A stretch of DNA of 29,939 nt from an uncultured bacterium (GCA_913060955.1 CAJXTH010000001.1:1-29939), one strand, 5' to 3'; positions 563-27,002 are shown, counted from the first letter of the stretch. The notes: a model not told the origin generated them from the sequence alone. Numbers and translations are program-made.

Positions 563-1579
563 ATGTTTAAGATACAGAAAAAAGAACTGTTAGACAAGTA
601 CTCTCGATGGAGAAAACAAGCGGAAGTAAGAAAGCTAAGTACAGAAGCAAGACTCAGACTTGAATGGATGATCCAACTTGATCAAGGAAAGTCTGTACAA
701 AGGATTTGTGCAGACTTTGGGATATCTCGTTCAGCACTCTACAAATGGAAGAAACGTTTTGTTTCAACCCATATTTCCTCTCTTGAGAGCCATGCACGAC
801 GACCGCACTCCGTGCGTTCTCGTCGTGCAACAGCACACCAAGATGAACGAGTGATCGCTTTGAGAAAGCACTATCCCTACTACGGGAAAGAAAAATTGAA
901 AGTAGTATACCAGAGAATATACCAAGAGAAGATTACTTCTTGGTATATTCAAAGAGTGATCCAAACCTACAAACTGTATCCAGCAAAACGAAAAGGGAAA
1001 GGTACTACACAAATAAGCCGAAAAAGGACTCCGAGAAAGAGAATAACTCACTTTACGGAGGAGAAGACCAGCTTCGGTCTTCTCCTGCATCTAGATACGA
1101 TAGAAGTCCGTATCCAAGGAAAGAAACGGTATATCCTCACAGCAGTAGATAGCTTTACTCGCGTAGGCTTTGCCTACGCGTATACCAATCACAGCTCAGC
1201 TTCAGCAAAAGATTTCTTGCTGAAGCTGTATGAGATCTTTGAAGGAAATATCCAGCATATCCATACAGATAATGGCTCTGAATTTGCTGGATATTTCGAG
1301 CGGGCTATCCAGAAATTAGAGTTAACTCATTGGTATTCACGGGTACGTGTAAGTAAAGATAATGCCAAGTGTGAAAGACTGAACAGGACTCTGCAAGATG
1401 AGATAAGCATGAGTCCTCACTACGGTTGGAGTTCGGATATTCAAGCCTTAAATGCTACACTAGGTGAATGGCTGTTAGAGTATCTCTACATTCGGCCTCA
1501 TGCCTCACTCTCATATGACACTCCTCTTCAATTTCTTGATAAAGTGTCCACGATGTCCTCATCTCGTACAGTCAATTGA
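563..1579 (+). CDS. IS481-family transposase (HTH + integrase core DDE)
   Basis: 338 aa. N-terminal HTH (SVQRICADFGISRSALYKWKKRF), DDE triad in HLDT / TDNGSEF / CERLNRT, and C-terminal YLYIRPHASL. The stop codon lies just beyond the right IR. Confidence 0.93.
   Translation: MFKIQKKELLDKYSRWRKQAEVRKLSTEARLRLEWMIQLDQGKSVQRICADFGISRSALYKWKKRFVSTHISSLESHARRPHSVRSRRATAHQDERVIALRKHYPYYGKEKLKVVYQRIYQEKITSWYIQRVIQTYKLYPAKRKGKGTTQISRKRTPRKRITHFTEEKTSFGLLLHLDTIEVRIQGKKRYILTAVDSFTRVGFAYAYTNHSSASAKDFLLKLYEIFEGNIQHIHTDNGSEFAGYFERAIQKLELTHWYSRVRVSKDNAKCERLNRTLQDEISMSPHYGWSSDIQALNATLGEWLLEYLYIRPHASLSYDTPLQFLDKVSTMSSSRTVN
1545..1570 (-). repeat. Right inverted repeat of IS
   Basis: TGTCCACGATGTCCTCATCTCGTACA; reads TGTACG... 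from the outside end. Confidence 0.8.
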
Positions 1580-21257: not shown

Positions 21258-22433
21258 TTAGACCTTGGCCGCTCGAATTAAGGCTCCCCAAGCCAAGAGT
21301 CCAAGTCCAAGCCAGATAATGAAGCTAAGTCCAGGAACGAGCCCGACAACCATAGTTACTACATACACTCCCAAGGCCATAAAGAACAGACGAACATTGT
21401 TGGCCTCCATCTGCATTTGTGAATTCAAGAGATGGGACAGGAATAGAGCCGTAACACTTCCAGTAAAGAAAAGTCCAAATACATACAGAGCTCCGGCAAA
21501 CAATCCAATTGGAAGTCCAATAGTACTAATCAAAAGAGCCAAGATAGCCACTGGTGGCAAGAAGAGCGCAACCGATCCCCAGCCGAAGCTTGCTGCTACA
21601 TCTGATCCAGTGTGAAGTGACATAGATGCCTTGCGGAAGTATTTATTGAACAAAAGCATAATGGTTCCAATCACGACTGCAGCCCAGAGCAATCGGGTAA
21701 TCGTCCACAGGGTGAACAATGAAGCACCAACTGCCTTCCATTCGAAATCTTGTGCCATCTCTTCTCCAAGAGACTCATCATAGGAAACTTCTCCACCCAC
21801 TCGATTCTCCAAAGAAAGATCTTCTGGGGCATAGTACTTCAAATCCCCTTGAATCCGCTCAGCATCTCCCACAAGATCAAGGGTGTCAGAGACAACCACA
21901 GTCGCGTTTCCTGCAACAGCTCCCTCAAGGACAAGCTTGGTAGCGCGAACGTCAGCATCTCCACCTACCGTTCCGGTAAGTACCACTTGCTCTCCTCCAG
22001 CTCGGAGCATACCTTCAACATCACCGTCTACTTTTACGGTGGCGGCAGAGGCGACCAAATCTCCACCGATCGTGACTCCCTCCGCAACAGTAACGGTACT
22101 TGCAAAAGCGAGTACGTCTCCCTCGATATCTTCATTAATAGCAATGGTAGATCCCGCTACACGGACGTCGTCACCAACCGGAGCGTTAATCTGAATCGTC
22201 TCTCCAGCAACCGAAACATCTTCAACTACTTCCTTATCAACCGTAACTGTTTGAGCCGCTCCGATCAAATCTCCGTCCAACACAGACTCAAGATTTACCA
22301 ATGACCCCGCAAAATATGCATCGGCTGCATCAGGAAGATTGATCCGAAGAGTATCTCCGGAAAAAAATGTAGCCGCAGAAGCCGACGGGGCGAGGAGTCC
22401 CCAGACTAATGCTATCGCAAGTATTCGTTTCAT
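21258..22433 (-). CDS. Secreted bactofilin-like (polymer-forming cytoskeletal) beta-helix protein with C-terminal multi-TM domain
   Basis: 391 aa. Signal peptide, repeated V-x-G-D-V/L-x-A-x-G/A units, then 4-5 TM helices. Confidence 0.8.
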   Translation of the reverse strand: MKRILAIALVWGLLAPSASAATFFSGDTLRINLPDAADAYFAGSLVNLESVLDGDLIGAAQTVTVDKEVVEDVSVAGETIQINAPVGDDVRVAGSTIAINEDIEGDVLAFASTVTVAEGVTIGGDLVASAATVKVDGDVEGMLRAGGEQVVLTGTVGGDADVRATKLVLEGAVAGNATVVVSDTLDLVGDAERIQGDLKYYAPEDLSLENRVGGEVSYDESLGEEMAQDFEWKAVGASLFTLWTITRLLWAAVVIGTIMLLFNKYFRKASMSLHTGSDVAASFGWGSVALFLPPVAILALLISTIGLPIGLFAGALYVFGLFFTGSVTALFLSHLLNSQMQMEANNVRLFFMALGVYVVTMVVGLVPGLSFIIWLGLGLLAWGALIRAAKV

Positions 22434-22456
22434 ATTCTTGATATTACCTTAGCTTC

Positions 22457-22485
22457 ATTATACGCCTGATTTGTAAAAGCCTCAA
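22457..22485 (-). promoter_or_regulatory. sigma70-type promoter for the minus-strand gene run
   Basis: Minus strand TTGAGG-17-TATAAT. Confidence 0.65.
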
Positions 22486-22498
22486 ATAGCGGTAGAAT
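22471..22498 (+). promoter_or_regulatory. Overlapping divergent promoter for the dehydrogenase
   Basis: TTGTAA-16-TAGAAT. Confidence 0.5.
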
Positions 22499-22523
22499 AA
22501 AAATAAGTATTAACAAAACAGAT

Positions 22524-23531
22524 ATGCAGCCAGTCATCACCTGCTTCGAAATTGACGAATCCGAACGATCCTTTATGGATCCAAAGCTTCCCGAAGGAAC
22601 CAAGCATTATTATCCCAACGCCGTCTCCGTTGAACTTGCCGCACAGCATCCCGACACAACCCACCTGGTAGTCTTTGTATACTCCCAAGTAACCAAAGAA
22701 GTCTTGGATGCTCTGCCGAACTTGCAGGCCGTATTTACTATGTCTACCGGGTACGACCATATCGACCTCGAAACATGTAAAGAACGAGACATCACCGTCC
22801 ACAGCGTGCCCTTCTATGGAGAAAACACTGTCGCCGAACACACCTTTGCATTGATCTTGGCAATTTCCCGGCGTATCTACGAGTCAATCCAACGAACCGA
22901 AGGACTCAATTTCAACCCCGACGGCCTGGTAGGATTTGATCTCCAAGAAAAAACCCTCGGAATTATCGGCATGGGACACATTGGAGCTCACGTAGCCCGA
23001 ATCGCCAAAGGATTTGGAATGAACATTTTGGCCTATGACCCCTTCCCCAAGGAGGGCCTCGACTCTGAAATTGGCTTTGAATACGTGTCTCTTGATCACC
23101 TTCTCGAACATTCCGACATTGTATCCTTGCACACCGCCTACCGACCAGAAACCCACCACCTGATCAACTGTGAAAATATTCAGAAATTCAAGCGCGGATC
23201 CTATCTGATCAACACCGCCCGCGGAGGCCTGGTAGAAACTCAAGCCATCGTTGATGGACTAGAACACGGTATCCTGGCTGGAGCCGGACTCGACGTCCTC
23301 GAAGAAGAATGTGTAATCAAAGAAGACAAGCAAATTCTCACCCGCCAATACCAACAATCTTGTGATCTCACCACGGTACTCCAAAATCACATGCTGATCA
23401 AAGATCCTCGGGTTGTTGTTACCCCGCACAACGCCTTTAACTCCCAAGAGGCACTCCAGCGAATCATGGAAACCACCGTCCAAAACATCACCCAACAGCT
23501 CCAAGGAGAATTAGAAAATCAGGTGAAGTAA
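22524..23531 (+). CDS. ldhA: D-isomer-specific 2-hydroxyacid dehydrogenase (D-lactate dehydrogenase-like)
   Basis: 335 aa. Motifs STGYDHID, VAEHTFAL, GMGHIG, INTARGGLV, LDVLEEE and VTPHNAF. Confidence 0.85.
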   Translation: MQPVITCFEIDESERSFMDPKLPEGTKHYYPNAVSVELAAQHPDTTHLVVFVYSQVTKEVLDALPNLQAVFTMSTGYDHIDLETCKERDITVHSVPFYGENTVAEHTFALILAISRRIYESIQRTEGLNFNPDGLVGFDLQEKTLGIIGMGHIGAHVARIAKGFGMNILAYDPFPKEGLDSEIGFEYVSLDHLLEHSDIVSLHTAYRPETHHLINCENIQKFKRGSYLINTARGGLVETQAIVDGLEHGILAGAGLDVLEEECVIKEDKQILTRQYQQSCDLTTVLQNHMLIKDPRVVVTPHNAFNSQEALQRIMETTVQNITQQLQGELENQVK

Positions 23532-23560
23532 TTGACAACATACGTAATATTGTATAAACT
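23532..23560 (+). promoter_or_regulatory. sigma70-type promoter directly after the dehydrogenase stop, with no sense gene downstream
   Basis: TTGACA (23532-23537), 17-bp spacer, TAAACT (23555-23560). Confidence 0.65.
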
Positions 23561-23566
23561 CAGAGT

Positions 23567-23623
23567 ACAAATCGCCACATAGGCGCGACCCCAATCACCC
23601 AGGTGGTTGGGGGTCATTTTTTT
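23567..23623 (+). ncRNA. Candidate ~57-nt small RNA convergent with the PemK/MazF-like toxin gene
   Basis: Predicted +1 near 23567. CGCC-ACATA-GGCG hairpin followed by a terminator hairpin and T7. Confidence 0.45.
23587..23623 (+). terminator. Intrinsic terminator overlapping the toxin stop codon
   Basis: GACCCC-AATCAC-CCAG-GTGGTT-(G)-GGGGTC-A-TTTTTTT. Confidence 0.8.
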
Positions 23624-24027
23624 ATAAAAAGATCCAAAAACGAACTTTTGATAAGCTGAAAGTCATGTATTGATAATCTCCCCATACGATAATCCAATCG
23701 TTTTCCATCCATAACTCTCATTTGAGAAATCATAGCCGAACGAATTTTTCCTTTATGGGTAAATTCTATATAAAAGGGATTCTTGGGTTTGTTCTTTGTG
23801 CTTGTGGGAATACCAAAGAATAATCGTTTATTAAATTTTAGTAAGACAATTACTGGACGATGAAAAAAATCGTTCTTTCCGCTCGATTCAAATCCAACAT
23901 TTTCTCCAAAAGATGTCATCCACAAATCACGCTCTTTGAACCCAGGGATGTTTTGAGATGATTGGTCGAGAGACTTTTTGATTGGAAGCCATTGTTCAAA
24001 TCGTTTTACAAAAGGAATCTTTTTCAT
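23614..24027 (-). CDS. PemK/MazF-like endoribonuclease toxin (orphan)
   Basis: 137 aa. ERDLW...GENVGFE..GK...HRPVIVL...GIPTST...SQMRVMDGKRL pattern, with the MazF-type catalytic Arg (RP) and Thr/Ser present. Confidence 0.82.
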   Translation of the reverse strand: MKKIPFVKRFEQWLPIKKSLDQSSQNIPGFKERDLWMTSFGENVGFESSGKNDFFHRPVIVLLKFNKRLFFGIPTSTKNKPKNPFYIEFTHKGKIRSAMISQMRVMDGKRLDYRMGRLSIHDFQLIKSSFLDLFIKK

Positions 24028-24029
24028 AC

Positions 24030-24572
24030 CTATGAAAGCTCCTCCACAATCAAATCAGCCCATTTTTCGTCCAGAAAGTGATCAGAGTCAGGAACTGCGA
24101 CCAATCGAGCTCCCAACTCTGAAGCAATAACTTCTGACTGCTCAAATGGAATCCGCGAATCATCGAGAGATCCAATGACGATCCACTCTTTTGCCATGTC
24201 TCGGACCTTGGCAATATTGAGTTCTCGATCAAAAAAGTTAGCATAGGCGCCATCTCGAAAGGAAGCGTTGGATGTCCAGTTCGCAAACGGTCCCACCAAT
24301 ACTCCTCGATCAATTTGGATATCATGTTCTTCTAAAAATCGAATCAAGGCTCGAGTTCCTAAACTATGTCCAATCATCGTAACTAGATCATCAGACTGTT
24401 CGAGAGCATTGGCGATAATCGGCTCCCATTGGGTATATACAGGGCTTCGTCCGCCCGGAAAGTCGGGGGCAATCACCGTTTCTCCGGATTCTACCAACAA
24501 TTCTTTTAACCGAGGGTGCCAGTTTGATTCGGATGATCCGTTATATCCATGAATGTCGATTGTGGTTGCCAT
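24030..24572 (-). CDS. Alpha/beta hydrolase, RBBP9/YdeN family
   Basis: 180 aa. IHGYNG oxyanion loop, GHSLG nucleophile, SLDD and DHF triad residues. Confidence 0.88.
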   Translation of the reverse strand: MATTIDIHGYNGSSESNWHPRLKELLVESGETVIAPDFPGGRSPVYTQWEPIIANALEQSDDLVTMIGHSLGTRALIRFLEEHDIQIDRGVLVGPFANWTSNASFRDGAYANFFDRELNIAKVRDMAKEWIVIGSLDDSRIPFEQSEVIASELGARLVAVPDSDHFLDEKWADLIVEELS

Positions 24573-24579
24573 ATTTTTT

Positions 24580-24786
24580 CTAGGTATTAAATGTCTGCAT
24601 GACTGCTAATATAATTCCCCAAACAATCATTGCTCCACCAATTCCCATAATGATTGCCAAAATAATGGGAGCAAAGAGCATACCAAGTGCCGCTAACCCT
24701 GCTAAGACCAGTCCTCCAATAATAAACCATCGTGGATCACCTTGAGGCATCTTGCCGCCAGCTGGCTGTACAATTTTTACTTTCAT
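24580..24786 (-). CDS. Small 2-TM hypothetical membrane protein
   Basis: 68 aa with two hydrophobic segments, tightly packed between pepP and the hydrolase. Confidence 0.65.
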   Translation of the reverse strand: MKVKIVQPAGGKMPQGDPRWFIIGGLVLAGLAALGMLFAPIILAIIMGIGGAMIVWGIILAVMQTFNT

Positions 24787-24790
24787 AGAT

Positions 24791-26131
24791 TTATTGAATA
24801 AGTGATTCTAATTGGTCGATTTCTTTGGGAATTGCTTCGGTGAGATTTTCGATTCCTGAATCAGTCTTCACAATATCGTCTTCGATTCGGACTCCAATTC
24901 CCCGAAGTTCAGCCGGGACGGTTTCATCGTCAGCCGTAAAGTAGAGTCCCGGTTCGATGGTAATTGCCATCCCCGGCTCAAATGACACCGATGCTCTGGT
25001 GCCTTCCAAGGATCGATAGGTTCCGACGTCATGCACGTCTAGCCCAATATAGTGTCCCGTTCCGTGCATGTAGTACCGAGCGTATTCTCGATTCTCAATT
25101 AACTCATCAACATCTCCGGAAAGAACTCCAAGCTCCACCAACCCTTCGGTCAAAACCCGAATGGCTGTTTCGTGAATCGATCCGGTAGTACCCCCTTCTC
25201 GAGCAGCCTCGTCAAGAGCAGCATACTGAGCCTTGAGAACTGTGTTGTAGACTCGCTTTTGCGGTTCCGTGAATGTTCCAGAAGCAGGATAACATCGAGT
25301 AATATCTGAGGCATAATACCCATACTCACAACCAGCATCTACCAAAACAAGATCATTTTGTCCTACCTTGGCATCGTTAGCAGTGTAGTGAAGGGTACAG
25401 GCATTTGCTCCGGTAGCTACAATCGGAGGATAGGACCAAGGAGCTCCTTCTTTTCTAAATCCATACAAGAGTTCTGCTTCCAGCTGGTACTCGTAGACGT
25501 CTCCTTTTTTCATTCCCTCAACCAAAGCCCGATACATTCGCTCGTGAGCCTCCACCGCGATTCGGGCCGAGATCCGCATCTGCTCCCCTTCCCAATCTGA
25601 TTTAAACCCTCGTAATTGAGACATCATCAAGTTCGTCCGAGAAACAGATTCAATGCGTTCGGTAACTCCTCGTCGAGCATCGTCGGTGAGGTATCGTCCG
25701 AGTCGATTGCGTAATTCTCGATAGGACTGACCACCCAGGTCAACAAATACTTCCGTACCCCCCCCGAAGAGTTCCGGCCAATCCTGCTCGAATTGCGGGT
25801 GATCAGATACTGCTTCAATTCCACTGACTTCTGCAGCACCATCTTTTCCCAGTTTCTTTCCCGTCCATTGTTCTTTGGACGGATCAAATGGAGCAACATA
25901 GAGATACTCTTCCCGATTCCTGTCGTGATCAAGTTTCAAAACATAGACTCCGTCTTCTTCGTTGATCCCAGTCAGGTACCAAAAGTCACTATCCTGGCGA
26001 AATGGATATTCAGTATCTGCATTCCGGGTTTGGACTTCAGCAGAAAACAGAACCAATATGGAATTGGCTGGCATAAGCTCAGCAACTCGATCTCGTCGAG
26101 TCTGGAGTTCGGAAAGAGGAATCTTATACAT
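24791..26131 (-). CDS. pepP: Xaa-Pro aminopeptidase (aminopeptidase P, M24B); start moved to ATG 26131 (alternative 26161)
   Basis: FRQDSDFWYLTG, VDAGCEYGYYASDITR, HGTGHYIGLDVHD, TIEPGLY and GVRIEDD. ATG 26131 gives an 8-nt coupled overlap with the upstream ORF. Confidence 0.93.
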   Translation of the reverse strand: MYKIPLSELQTRRDRVAELMPANSILVLFSAEVQTRNADTEYPFRQDSDFWYLTGINEEDGVYVLKLDHDRNREEYLYVAPFDPSKEQWTGKKLGKDGAAEVSGIEAVSDHPQFEQDWPELFGGGTEVFVDLGGQSYRELRNRLGRYLTDDARRGVTERIESVSRTNLMMSQLRGFKSDWEGEQMRISARIAVEAHERMYRALVEGMKKGDVYEYQLEAELLYGFRKEGAPWSYPPIVATGANACTLHYTANDAKVGQNDLVLVDAGCEYGYYASDITRCYPASGTFTEPQKRVYNTVLKAQYAALDEAAREGGTTGSIHETAIRVLTEGLVELGVLSGDVDELIENREYARYYMHGTGHYIGLDVHDVGTYRSLEGTRASVSFEPGMAITIEPGLYFTADDETVPAELRGIGVRIEDDIVKTDSGIENLTEAIPKEIDQLESLIQ

Positions 26132-26336
26132 CGTCGAATCCGTCGTTAACTTCGTAGGCAAGCTCCATGATTTTTGCCTCGTATTCGTGTTCAGGAATCA
26201 CATCTCGCCACTCTTGGGCGAAGAGTTCTACCACCTGAGCAAACTCAGCTTCCGGCAATCGAATTTGGTTTTGTTTCAAAATCTGGCCGACCAGTTGTTC
26301 AACATCTTCTTCTTGTTGTAAAGTAAGGGTGTCCAT
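26124..26336 (-). CDS. Small acidic hypothetical protein (70 aa)
   Basis: 18 Asp/Glu versus 4 Lys/Arg. The stop overlaps the pepP start (ATGTATAA), and the start has the TATG context of other genes here. Confidence 0.6.
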   Translation of the reverse strand: MDTLTLQQEEDVEQLVGQILKQNQIRLPEAEFAQVVELFAQEWRDVIPEHEYEAKIMELAYEVNDGFDDV

Positions 26337-26376
26337 ATCGTATTCAGTTATCTTTCAGTCTTTATTGTACCAAGAT

Positions 26377-26937
26377 ATGCCAACCAACGACAAGACCTCT
26401 CTTCGAACCCACTATCGATCGCTCCGCAAACTTCCGACCACTCGGAACGTATTTATAGTACCAAAGTTAGAAACCATACCCCCTCGCCCACAAACACTCC
26501 ACACCTACCTATCGCTTCCGGGAGAGATCGATACCCACCCCATTCTTTCTTGGGCCTGGGACCATGATATCCAAACGTTCACTTCCATTCCTCAACCCAA
26601 CGGAGTCCTCACCCATCACCCTATCCTTCCCAATACTCAACTTAGTTGCCATGCCTGGGGAATGATGATTCCTGATACTCCGGCTACTGAGATTCCTGAT
26701 CTCGATTGGATTGTGGTTCCCGGTCTTGCCTTTGATTTGTCAGGAACTCGACTCGGATTTGGCGGCGGATATTACGATCGGTTTCTGGCTACGCACCCGG
26801 AATCTCATACCATTGGACTATGTTTTGATAGCCAACTCCACCCAGAACCGCTTCCCCGCGAACCTCACGATATTCCAGTAGACACAATCATAACAGAAAC
26901 CAGGGTTATAAACGCGAAAACGCCACCGCGAAGGTGA
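26377..26937 (+). CDS. ygfA: 5-formyltetrahydrofolate cyclo-ligase (start at ATG 26377)
   Basis: KTSLRTHYRSLR N-terminus, EIDTHPI, VPGLAFDLSGTRLGFGGGYYDRFL and HDIPVDTIITE. Confidence 0.92.
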   Translation: MPTNDKTSLRTHYRSLRKLPTTRNVFIVPKLETIPPRPQTLHTYLSLPGEIDTHPILSWAWDHDIQTFTSIPQPNGVLTHHPILPNTQLSCHAWGMMIPDTPATEIPDLDWIVVPGLAFDLSGTRLGFGGGYYDRFLATHPESHTIGLCFDSQLHPEPLPREPHDIPVDTIITETRVINAKTPPRR

Positions 26938-26966
26938 CGTTTTCTGTAACAGTCTGTGAAAGGTGC
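26910..26966 (-). ncRNA. Candidate ~55-nt small RNA
   Basis: Lies between a perfect minus-strand promoter and the hairpin at 26916-26944. No ORF. Confidence 0.4.
26916..26944. terminator. Bidirectional terminator-like hairpin containing the ygfA stop
   Basis: GAAAACGCCACC-GCGAA-GGTGACGTTTTC, with A/T runs on both sides. Confidence 0.65.
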
Positions 26967-26972
26967 GTTTGT

Positions 26973-27000
26973 ATTATACGCCCCCACCATAGATTGTCAA
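26973..27000 (-). promoter_or_regulatory. Consensus sigma70 promoter with no adjacent sense gene
   Basis: Minus strand TTGACA-16-TATAAT. Confidence 0.7.
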
Positions 27001-27002
27001 AT

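What the first reader, a model, noticed from the sequence alone, without database searches (positions are those of the whole stretch)
23532..24027. Orphan PemK/MazF-like toxin faced by its own promoter-driven ~57-nt convergent RNA: candidate RNA-antitoxin system
Seen: (i) the toxin keeps the MazF-type catalytic motifs (HRPV, GIPTST), but the gene directly upstream is a YdeN hydrolase and no antitoxin ORF flanks it; (ii) the base after the dehydrogenase stop begins a TTGACA-17-TAAACT promoter with no plus-strand gene for about 2.8 kb; (iii) this promoter would make ACAAAUCGCCACAUAGGCGC-GACCCCAAUCACCCAGGUGGUUGGGGGUCA-U7, a small 4-bp hairpin plus terminator; (iv) the toxin's last codons and TGA lie inside that terminator. 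Established: PemK/MazF RNases normally pair with protein antitoxins (type II). RNA antitoxins act either by antisense 3'-overlap (type I, e.g. txpA/RatA) or by binding the nuclease (type III, ToxIN, whose toxin has a MazF/Kid-like fold). Inference: this is an RNA-neutralised MazF-like module.
Basis: partly seen in the sequence, partly recalled or inferred. Interest (0 to 1): 0.78.

Follow-up and report, generated by a model that had tools for sequence, protein, structure and literature searches.

The report
MazF-like toxin with convergent small RNA
A MazF-type RNA-cutting toxin gene with no protein antidote sits tail-to-tail with a tiny, strongly promoted, two-hairpin RNA gene, and the same pair recurs across Patescibacteria, so the RNA is probably the antidote.

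Summary
Window 23614-24027(-) encodes a 137-aa MazF/PemK-fold protein with the catalytic Arg-Pro and Thr/Ser motifs and a family-specific N-terminal helix. No antitoxin ORF flanks it.

The facing element consists of:
- a TTGACA-17-TAAACT promoter;
- a short A/U leader;
- a 4-bp hairpin (P1);
- a GC-rich hairpin (P2);
- a U7 run that covers the toxin's stop codon.

This element is conserved. A covariance model finds it convergent to 85 of 95 homologous toxin genes, and to 27 of 29 in 41 related genomes. All 11 modelled base pairs show compensatory changes, and the promoter is near-consensus throughout.

A related genome has the two flanking host genes directly convergent, so the 496-bp pair is an inserted cassette. 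The same RNA occasionally faces zeta-toxin, NYN and DUF4143 genes.

A homologous toxin on C. jejuni plasmid pVir faces the Northern-detected sRNA CJpv3. This is probably the published type I pair CjrA/CjpT, but I could not verify that.

Most likely this is a cis-antisense (type I-like) RNA antitoxin. Expression and neutralisation are untested here. This scan has found the same module before on other DNA.

The parts
23532..23537 (+). -35 hexamer TTGACA of the small-RNA promoter
   Evidence: Family-wide column frequencies are T100 T98 G98 A88 C85 A66.
23555..23560 (+). -10 hexamer TAAACT, 17 nt after the -35
   Evidence: aligned to the model's UAUAAU. Family columns are T98 A98 T68 A75 A75 T100. 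The -10 was not used to pick the sequences of alignment A3, where T, A and the final T are invariant.
23567..23623 (+). Predicted small RNA of about 57 nt. The start is inferred from promoter spacing and the end from the U-run.
   Evidence: Covariance model R2 scores 45.7 bits, E 1e-6 in the window and 2.7e-5 in the whole genome. Expression was not tested.
23573..23585 (+). P1 hairpin: CGCC / GGCG with a 5-nt loop
   Evidence: fold. P1 covaries on a MAFFT alignment that was not fitted to any model and on the model alignment.
23587..23615 (+). P2 GC-rich hairpin (12 pairs, one bulge, one G-U), which serves as the terminator stem
   Evidence: All 6 modelled P2 pairs show double changes and 98% of cells are paired.
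23617..23623 (+). U7 tail of the terminator. Its complement encodes the toxin's last Lys-Lys-(Ile) codons.
   Evidence: T content after P2 averages 5.6 of 10 on this strand, against 1.9 of 10 after the same hairpin on the toxin-sense strand.
23614..24027 (-). MazF/PemK-fold toxin gene, 137 aa, with an N-terminal helix (residues 10-22) found throughout this subfamily
   Evidence: Pfam. PDB profile match to B. subtilis EndoA/MazF at E 1e-8. AlphaFold model with pLDDT 93. Fold search top hits are all MazF, with TM 0.7-0.8 by target. Invariant residues are W13, K17, G41, N43, G45, E47, R57, P58 and R110.

Best explanation
Window 23532-24027 is a self-contained, inserted two-gene cassette. One gene encodes a MazF-family endoribonuclease with no protein antitoxin. 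The other is a convergent gene for a small RNA of about 57 nt. The RNA gene has a near-consensus sigma-70 promoter, a short A/U leader, a 4-5-bp hairpin (P1), a GC-rich terminator hairpin (P2) and a U-tail that ends on the toxin's stop codon.

The RNA is most likely the antitoxin or silencer. It would be made in large excess from a strong promoter. The toxin gene has no terminator of its own, so its mRNA would read through the RNA gene. The small RNA would then pair with that fully complementary 3' end, leading to duplex cleavage (RNase III type) or loss of the toxin message. That is a type I-like, cis-antisense mechanism.

Shown here:
- the anatomy;
- the family-wide linkage;
- the covariation;
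- the promoter and terminator polarity;
- the cassette insertion.

Inferred:
- transcription in this organism;
- toxicity;
- read-through of the toxin mRNA;
- neutralisation by the RNA.
For: Toxin identity.

No conserved neighbouring ORF: in 95 loci the upstream and downstream genes differ in identity, size and strand. They include rpoC and tRNA-synthetase genes.

Element conserved: it was first seen by eye in 73 or more of 95 loci. Model R2 finds a convergent hit within 120 nt of the stop in 85 of 95 toxin genes. Only 6-7 of 92 hits in 483 kb lie elsewhere.

Related genomes: in 41 genomes, all 9 toxin-bearing genomes have the RNA. 27 of 29 toxin matches have it adjacent, including truncated or stop-containing copies. 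30 genomes have neither.

Covariation:
- P1 pairs on a MAFFT alignment are UA 23 / CG 8, GC 26 / CG 11 / AU 2, and CG 24 / GC 11.
- On the model alignment 96% of cells are paired, against 74.5% when shuffled.
- All 11 pairs show double changes.
- The covariation score is 0.548 against 0.183 shuffled, with 0 of 500 shuffles reaching it. Slid controls score 0.093 or less.

Polarity: the consensus -35 and -10 and the U-run occur only on the strand antisense to the toxin.

Promoter strength: many toxin genes have only an extended -10 and no -35.

Cassette: in G002 the dehydrogenase and hydrolase genes are directly convergent with a 22-nt spacer. Other relatives carry an Hsp20 gene there.

Same RNA with unrelated toxin-like genes:
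- zeta toxin operon;
- NYN RNase;
- AAA_14/DUF4143 ATPase in this same genome.
This argues for action at the RNA level rather than a specific fit to the MazF protein.

Homologous system: C. jejuni pVir0047 is 36% identical to the window toxin at E 2e-19 and carries the N-terminal extension. It faces sRNA CJpv3, which runs from 31119 to 31043, is 77 nt long, ends 5 nt from the toxin stop and was detected by Northern blot. Its TSS signal is 16164 against 28 for the toxin TSS (Dugar 2013, PMC3656092). An antisense RNA antitoxin, CjrA, of a type I system on pVir is on record.
Against: No transcript evidence exists for this organism. No run was listed for the window, and the runs found for a relative's locus were contigs, probably DNA, that did not cover the toxin.

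Physical overlap with the coding region is only about 10 nt here, so antisense action needs read-through of the toxin mRNA, which is untested.

G-U versus A-C counts in the helices do not favour either strand (19 versus 20). The folding-energy difference between strands is marginal at p = 0.06. The strand assignment therefore rests on the promoter and the U-run.

P1 and the linker are conserved beyond what pure cis-complementarity needs, which leaves room for a protein partner.

The subfamily-specific N-terminal helix with invariant Trp and Lys could be an RNA-binding or self-inhibiting part.

The covariance model contains the promoter, so hits are partly selected for it.

I could not verify that CjrA/CjpT equals CJpv3/pVir0047, because the paper is not held.
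Confidence: 0.55

Rival explanations
1. The RNA is a type III-like antitoxin. The folded small RNA (leader plus P1 plus P2) binds the MazF-like dimer directly and blocks its RNA groove, perhaps through the family-specific N-terminal helix.
For: P1, the CGA linker and the CC-rich start of P2 are conserved in shape although their sequences drift. This subfamily alone has an extra N-terminal helix with invariant W13 and K17. Paralogous modules within one genome carry different P1/P2 combinations. ToxN-type toxins have a related fold (established knowledge).
Against: No tandem repeats are present, and the RNA is single-copy and convergent rather than upstream on the same strand. The same RNA type faces unrelated proteins: zeta toxin, NYN and DUF4143. 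The fold search returns MazF, not ToxN. The complex prediction was not run by the tool.
Confidence: 0.17
2. The RNA gene is real but is not the antitoxin. The toxin would instead be controlled by a protein encoded elsewhere (as MrpC controls the solitary M. xanthus MazF) or by its own N-terminal extension. The RNA would only set the mRNA 3' end, act as a terminator or insulator for the inserted cassette, or have an unrelated target.
For: Solitary MazF with a distant protein partner is a known case (PMC2701414). P2 also serves as the only visible terminator for the dehydrogenase gene in this window. The element also occurs after rpoC and after a GT-C membrane protein gene, which are not toxins.
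Against: Linkage is near-obligate, at 85 of 95 and 27 of 29, and persists even beside decayed toxin genes. A terminator alone does not need a consensus promoter at fixed spacing. A homologous plasmid module in C. jejuni lies on a replicon for which an RNA antitoxin is reported.
Confidence: 0.15
3. The conserved hairpins act as DNA. They would be a recombination or insertion site, or a cassette boundary of a mobile element, and the promoter-like hexamers would be incidental.
For: The cassette is inserted at many unrelated sites, often flush with a host gene's stop codon. Arrays of cassettes occur. In L075 a second element copy lies on the other side of the toxin. Base-pair statistics show no strand bias.
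Against: The -35 and -10 hexamers are nearly invariant with fixed 17-nt spacing, and the U-run has one polarity. No recombinase is linked to the cassette. Cassettes in arrays point both ways. In the C. jejuni homolog the RNA is seen on Northern blots.
Confidence: 0.08
4. Ordinary reading: the hairpin is just the intrinsic terminator of the convergent dehydrogenase gene, and the promoter match is chance.
For: The terminator lies 56 nt after the dehydrogenase stop. Promoter-like sites are no more frequent here than in shuffles.
Against: The whole element travels with the toxin gene in loci where the downstream gene is on the toxin's own strand and no convergent gene exists. In G002 the dehydrogenase gene lacks it.
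Confidence: 0.02

Closest known systems
C. jejuni 81-176 plasmid pVir: PemK/MazF-family gene CJJ81176_pVir0047 with convergent sRNA CJpv3 (Dugar et al. 2013, PMC3656092). This is probably the type I pair CjrA/CjpT of Shen et al. 2016 (Mol Microbiol 101:909), which I could not read.
   Same: The toxin is homologous (36% identity, E 2e-19) and carries the N-terminal extension with the F..W...K motif. No adjacent antitoxin ORF is annotated. The sRNA has its own promoter on the opposite strand and ends 5 nt from the toxin stop in a CCCC...GGGG hairpin. The sRNA TSS signal is about 500 times that of the toxin.
   Different: The RNA is 77 nt with three hairpins and a Campylobacter-type extended -10 promoter. 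Model R2 scores it only 15.3 bits, E 1.4, so RNA homology is not shown. It is plasmid-borne in Campylobacterota, whereas this module is chromosomal in Patescibacteria. I did not verify that CJpv3 is CjrA.
Type I toxin-antitoxin systems with 3'-convergent antisense RNAs (B. subtilis txpA/RatA, bsrG/SR4)
   Same: The RNA is cis-encoded with its own strong promoter, converges on the toxin gene's 3' end, and there is no protein antitoxin. This rests on the layout here plus established knowledge of those systems.
   Different: Those toxins are small membrane peptides and their RNAs are 160-220 nt, overlapping 75-120 nt. Here the toxin is a 137-aa RNase and the RNA is about 57 nt, touching only the last codons. 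Enzyme toxins under type I control do exist (SymE/SymR, RalR/RalA) but are targeted at the 5' or coding region.
Type II MazEF / PemIK (Kis-Kid)
   Same: The toxin fold and the catalytic Arg and Thr/Ser positions match.
   Different: There is no MazE/PemI-type gene next to it in any of 95 loci. The toxin has an extra N-terminal helix. It has an RNA partner instead.
Type III systems (ToxIN, CptIN, TenpIN)
   Same: An RNA partner accompanies an endoribonuclease of a related fold class.
   Different: No tandem repeat array is present, the RNA is not upstream on the same strand, and the toxin is not of the ToxN/AbiQ family.
Rfam pemK RNA motif
   Same: An RNA element associated with pemK-annotated genes.
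   Different: No match at the gathering threshold, nor at E up to 10 on the element itself or E up to 1 on five loci.

Membership tests
Type II MazEF/PemIK | MazF/PemK-fold endoribonuclease toxin | tested here: met
   Pfam PF02452, 30 bits against a 23.1-bit cut-off. Family profile against B. subtilis EndoA at E 1e-8. Model pLDDT 93, with all top fold matches MazF.
Type II MazEF/PemIK | Catalytic Arg (in the R-P motif) and Thr/Ser after the conserved Pro | tested here: met
   R57 and P58 are invariant, P74 is nearly invariant and is followed by T/S-T/S. They align to R25 and T48 of B. subtilis MazF.
Type II MazEF/PemIK | Adjacent, co-oriented protein antitoxin gene | tested here: not met
   Window: a hydrolase lies 2 nt upstream and the toxin's stop lies inside the RNA terminator. 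In 95 loci the neighbours vary in size, strand and identity.
Type I TA (3'-convergent class) | Cis-encoded RNA with its own promoter and terminator, convergent on the toxin 3' end | tested here: met
   Met at sequence level only.
Type I TA (3'-convergent class) | Toxin is a small hydrophobic peptide | tested here: not met
   The toxin is a 137-aa soluble MazF-fold protein.
Type I TA (3'-convergent class) | RNA-mRNA duplex lowers toxin expression | not testable with these tools
   This needs 3' RACE of the toxin mRNA and genetics. No trans pairing to the toxin 5' region was found (mean z -0.44).
Type III TA (ToxIN-like) | Tandem direct-repeat RNA upstream of the toxin on the same strand | tested here: not met
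   No tandem repeats in window 22000-26000. The RNA is single-copy and on the opposite strand.
Type III TA (ToxIN-like) | RNA binds and inhibits the toxin protein | not testable with these tools
   The complex job with RNA was not folded.
Rfam pemK motif | Match to the Rfam covariance model | tested here: not met
pVir0047/CJpv3-type module (probable CjpT/CjrA) | Homologous toxin with the N-terminal extension | tested here: met
   36% identity, E 2e-19, covering residues 9-110. PF02452.
pVir0047/CJpv3-type module (probable CjpT/CjrA) | Convergent sRNA ending at the toxin stop and expressed far above the toxin | tested here: inconclusive
   The layout is met in the window. Expression is known only for C. 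jejuni. No reads were available for this organism.
pVir0047/CJpv3-type module (probable CjpT/CjrA) | RNA homologous to CJpv3 | tested here: inconclusive
   R2 on pVir 31037-31156(-) gives 15.3 bits, E 1.4.

The most novel reading that the evidence does not exclude
The ~55-nt two-hairpin RNA is a portable, generic RNA antitoxin or silencer of Patescibacteria. One conserved RNA design, made from a consensus promoter, would be plugged tail-to-tail onto unrelated toxic genes (MazF-like RNase, zeta kinase, NYN RNase, DUF4143 ATPase). It would replace protein antitoxins throughout a phylum with tiny genomes.
Probability: 0.25. Interest if true: 0.85.

Novelty: new variant of a known kind. Interest (0 to 1): 0.68.

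Why it matters
MazF/PemK toxins are the textbook type II toxins, neutralised by a protein. Here a whole MazF subfamily has an RNA gene in the antitoxin's place. It accounts for 402 loci in species-representative genomes, almost all Patescibacteria.

If the RNA is the antitoxin, three things follow:
- The type I / type II boundary is not tied to the toxin family.
- "Orphan" MazF genes in CPR genomes are explained.
- A compact, conserved and covarying small RNA family, absent from Rfam, becomes one of the few regulatory RNAs known for this uncultured phylum.

The finding is directly testable in E. coli or in a cultured Saccharibacteria co-culture. If Shen et al. 2016's CjpT is pVir0047, the kind is already characterised in Campylobacter. 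The news would then be its breadth and the CPR form of the RNA, which would make this a new member rather than a new variant.

Tried and rejected
- RNA evidence: no run was listed for the window. Two "RNA?" metagenome runs found with a relative's locus were assembler contigs, flagged as probably DNA. They covered only L019 3434-3651, which is the 5' part of the RNA gene, its promoter and a neighbouring repeat, and none of the toxin gene. They are no evidence either way.
- Complex prediction with a toxin dimer plus the RNA was not folded by the tool and gives no verdict.
- Strand test by G-U versus A-C pairs gave 19 versus 20, which is inconclusive. The energy difference between strands is small, at -16.7 against -16.3 kcal/mol, p = 0.06.
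- Trans pairing of the RNA's 5' part with the toxin's 5' region is not above shuffles (mean z -0.44). The 7-nt match in the window (CAAAUCG against codons 8-10) is therefore treated as chance.
- Rfam gave nothing. NCBIfam and PADLOC gave no family for the toxin.
- Tandem repeats of the ToxI kind are absent.
- My first MAFFT seeds misaligned P1 and P2. A 7-sequence gap-free seed was used instead.
- The Shen et al. 2016 paper is not held. Word searches for cjpT returned only unrelated papers.
- Literature searches for Patescibacteria/CPR plus MazF plus antisense or small RNA found nothing relevant.

Full report
**The locus**

Window 23614-24027(-) is a 137-aa ORF. Its start lies 2 nt after the stop of a YdeN-type serine hydrolase gene (24030-24572, -). 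Its stop lies inside a hairpin that follows the convergent 2-hydroxyacid dehydrogenase gene (22524-23531, +).

The plus strand between the two genes reads as follows:
- TTGACA at 23532-23537;
- a 17-nt spacer;
- TAAACT at 23555-23560;
- six bases;
- ACAAAU;
- a 4-bp hairpin, P1 (23573-23585);
- one base;
- a 12-pair GC-rich hairpin, P2 (23587-23615);
- A, then U7 (23617-23623).

The toxin's TGA is the complement of 23614-23616. The promoter match on its own is not above chance: 8 sites against 6.3 +/- 2.3 in shuffles.

**The protein**

- Pfam assigns PemK_toxin.
- A profile of 79 family members matches B. subtilis EndoA/MazF at E 1e-8. The R-P motif aligns to the catalytic Arg25, and the Thr/Ser after the conserved Pro aligns to Thr48.
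- The AlphaFold model has pLDDT 93. All of its top solved-structure matches are MazF proteins of S. aureus, M. tuberculosis, E. coli and Bacillus.
- The family carries an extra N-terminal helix (residues 10-22) with invariant W13 and K17.
- NCBIfam and PADLOC have no model for it.

**No protein antitoxin**

Homologs are 130-150 aa. They occur singly or in arrays of three to five copies in both orientations. In 95 family genes the neighbours on either side differ in identity, length, distance and strand. They include rpoC and aminoacyl-tRNA synthetase genes.

The genome is 742 kb and 71% complete, and its relatives are Patescibacteria. It holds a second family member on contig 41, which is also without a partner ORF.

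**The RNA element is conserved**

I printed the strand antisense to each toxin gene downstream of its stop. The same order appeared in nearly all of them, with different hairpin sequences: TTGACA, 17 nt, TAnAAT, about 6 nt, an A/U leader, P1, a CGA-like linker, P2, and a U-run at or inside the stop codon.

On a plain MAFFT alignment of 39 RNAs, RNAalifold recovers P1 with compensatory changes at all four pairs.

I built a covariance model from 7 gap-free seeds and rebuilt it from 66 hits. Its results are as follows:
- It finds a convergent match within 120 nt of the stop for 85 of 95 toxin genes.
- Only 6-7 of 92 hits in 483 kb lie elsewhere.
- On the model alignment 96% of cells pair, against 74.5% shuffled.
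- All 11 pairs show double changes.
- The covariation score is 0.548 against 0.183, with 0 of 500 shuffles reaching it. Slid controls stay at or below 0.093. This alignment is fitted to the model, so one search is the independent check.
- The window's own element scores 45.7 bits, E 2.7e-5 for the whole genome.

In 41 related genomes the toxin family occurs in 9 and the RNA in 11. All 9 toxin-bearing genomes have the RNA, and 30 genomes have neither. 27 of 29 toxin matches have the RNA next to their stop, including truncated copies and one with an internal stop. Related genomes are not independent samples, so I give counts only.

**Which strand**

Promoter columns are close to consensus:
- -35: T100 T98 G98 A88 C85 A66;
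- -10: T98 A98 T68 A75 A75 T100.

The model includes the promoter, which inflates these figures. The -10 was not used to pick the sequences of alignment A3, however, and it is invariant there at T, A and the final T.

The ten bases after P2 hold 5.6 T on average on the RNA strand. The same hairpin read on the toxin strand is followed by 1.9 T. G-U against A-C counts (19 against 20) and folding energies do not separate the strands. The assignment therefore rests on promoter and terminator polarity.

Many toxin genes have only an extended -10 upstream. This fits a weak toxin promoter facing a strong RNA promoter.

**A cassette**

In relative G002 the dehydrogenase and hydrolase genes are directly convergent, 22 nt apart. 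Other relatives carry an Hsp20 gene or another insert at that spot. The 496 bp at 23532-24027 are therefore an insertion that exactly fills the gap between two host genes.

**Other partners of the same RNA**

Good model hits also face these genes:
- a zeta-toxin operon, made of a zeta gene plus a 56-59-aa ORF, in two genomes;
- an NYN-domain RNase;
- an AAA_14/DUF4143 ATPase on contig 57 of this very genome;
- a GT-C membrane protein;
- the end of rpoC, immediately upstream of a toxin gene.

A few copies stand alone, one of them beside a remnant of a toxin 3' end.

This spread argues against a lock-and-key fit between the RNA and the MazF protein. It favours action on RNA or on transcription.

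**Known relatives**

Rfam has no matching family, and that includes its pemK motif.

Earlier notes of this scan describe the same module on other DNA and point to C. jejuni pVir. I checked that lead.
- The plasmid collection holds homologs only in Campylobacter, Helicobacter and Nitratiruptor.
- pVir0047 (NC_008770 30634-31038) is 36% identical to the window toxin, including the N-terminal motif.
- Dugar et al. 2013 list sRNA CJpv3 on the opposite strand, running from 31119 to 31043. It is 77 nt long and was detected by Northern blot.
- Its TSS value is 16164, against 28 for the toxin's TSS.
- CJpv3 ends in a CCCC...GGGG hairpin 5 nt from the toxin stop. It has three hairpins, and my model scores it only 15.3 bits.
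- Two papers cite an antisense RNA antitoxin, CjrA, of a type I system on pVir. The original paper is not held, so the equation CjrA = CJpv3 remains probable but unverified.

**Mechanism**

I commit to a type I-like reading. A strong promoter makes an excess of a stable two-hairpin RNA. The toxin mRNA lacks a terminator in its own direction, so it reads through the RNA gene and carries the exact complement of the RNA in its 3' end. Duplex formation then leads to cleavage or decay of the toxin message.

I put this at about 0.55. The alternatives are:
- direct protein binding, about 0.17;
- a real RNA gene that is not the antitoxin, about 0.15;
- a DNA-level role, about 0.08;
- the ordinary terminator-plus-chance reading, about 0.02.

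No complementarity to the toxin's 5' region was found.

Transcription in this organism, toxicity and rescue are all untested. Read data were not available, and the complex prediction was not run by the tool.

Noticed in passing
window 26916-27002 (-): A second consensus promoter (TTGACA-16/17-TATAAT) drives a short RNA that ends in a terminator and converges on the 3' end of the 202-aa ORF at 26329-26937(+). It scores only 14.2 bits (E 1.6) with model R2, mostly from the promoter, so it is not a member of the family described here. An earlier first-reader note (e1-5285799) links it to the 39-aa peptide gene nearby.
   Followed up: partly
G000 contig 57, 1926-2007 (+) = L089 1501-1582: This is the third copy of the RNA element in this genome (34 bits). 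Its U-run overlaps the stop codon of a convergent 382-aa AAA_14 + DUF4143 ATPase gene, not a MazF gene.
   Followed up: partly
G000 contig 41, 415-864 (+) with element at 861-958 (-) = L007: A paralogous 149-aa MazF-like gene sits between a tRNA-synthetase-like 3' end and an isochorismatase-like gene. It has its own divergent copy of the convergent RNA (23.5 bits). Its P1 is TGCGA/TCGCA.
   Followed up: partly
L004 4396-5601; L104 5538-6687: A zeta-toxin gene (273 aa) is followed by a 56-59-aa ORF with no Pfam match and then by the same convergent RNA element. In L004 two element copies lie in tandem.
   Followed up: partly
L075 2936-3018 (-): One copy of the element lies between the rpoC stop and the start codon of the MazF-like gene, and a second copy lies after the toxin. 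The toxin is thus bracketed by two copies, as in an earlier scan note about flanking repeats.
   Followed up: partly
L116 1454-1477; L115 947-1378; L120 2152-2583: The site between the dehydrogenase and hydrolase genes is variable among relatives. It is empty (22 nt) in G002, holds an Hsp20-like 143-aa gene in G008 and G012, and holds another insert with a 107-aa hydrophobic ORF in G004.
   Followed up: partly
G004:C8:108442-108651, G025:C6:30586-30792, G007:C3:71383-71793: Truncated or stop-containing copies of the toxin gene still have an intact, high-scoring RNA element next to them.
   Followed up: no
L019 3602-3651; L001 and L104 intergenic regions: A GC-rich repeated sequence lies beside several cassettes in the Paceibacteria-type arrays. 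It also turned up in contigs of two metagenome runs labelled RNA. Its nature is unknown.
   Followed up: no
window 24580-24786 (-): A 68-aa ORF with two hydrophobic stretches and no significant Pfam match lies between the hydrolase and the Xaa-Pro aminopeptidase genes.
   Followed up: no
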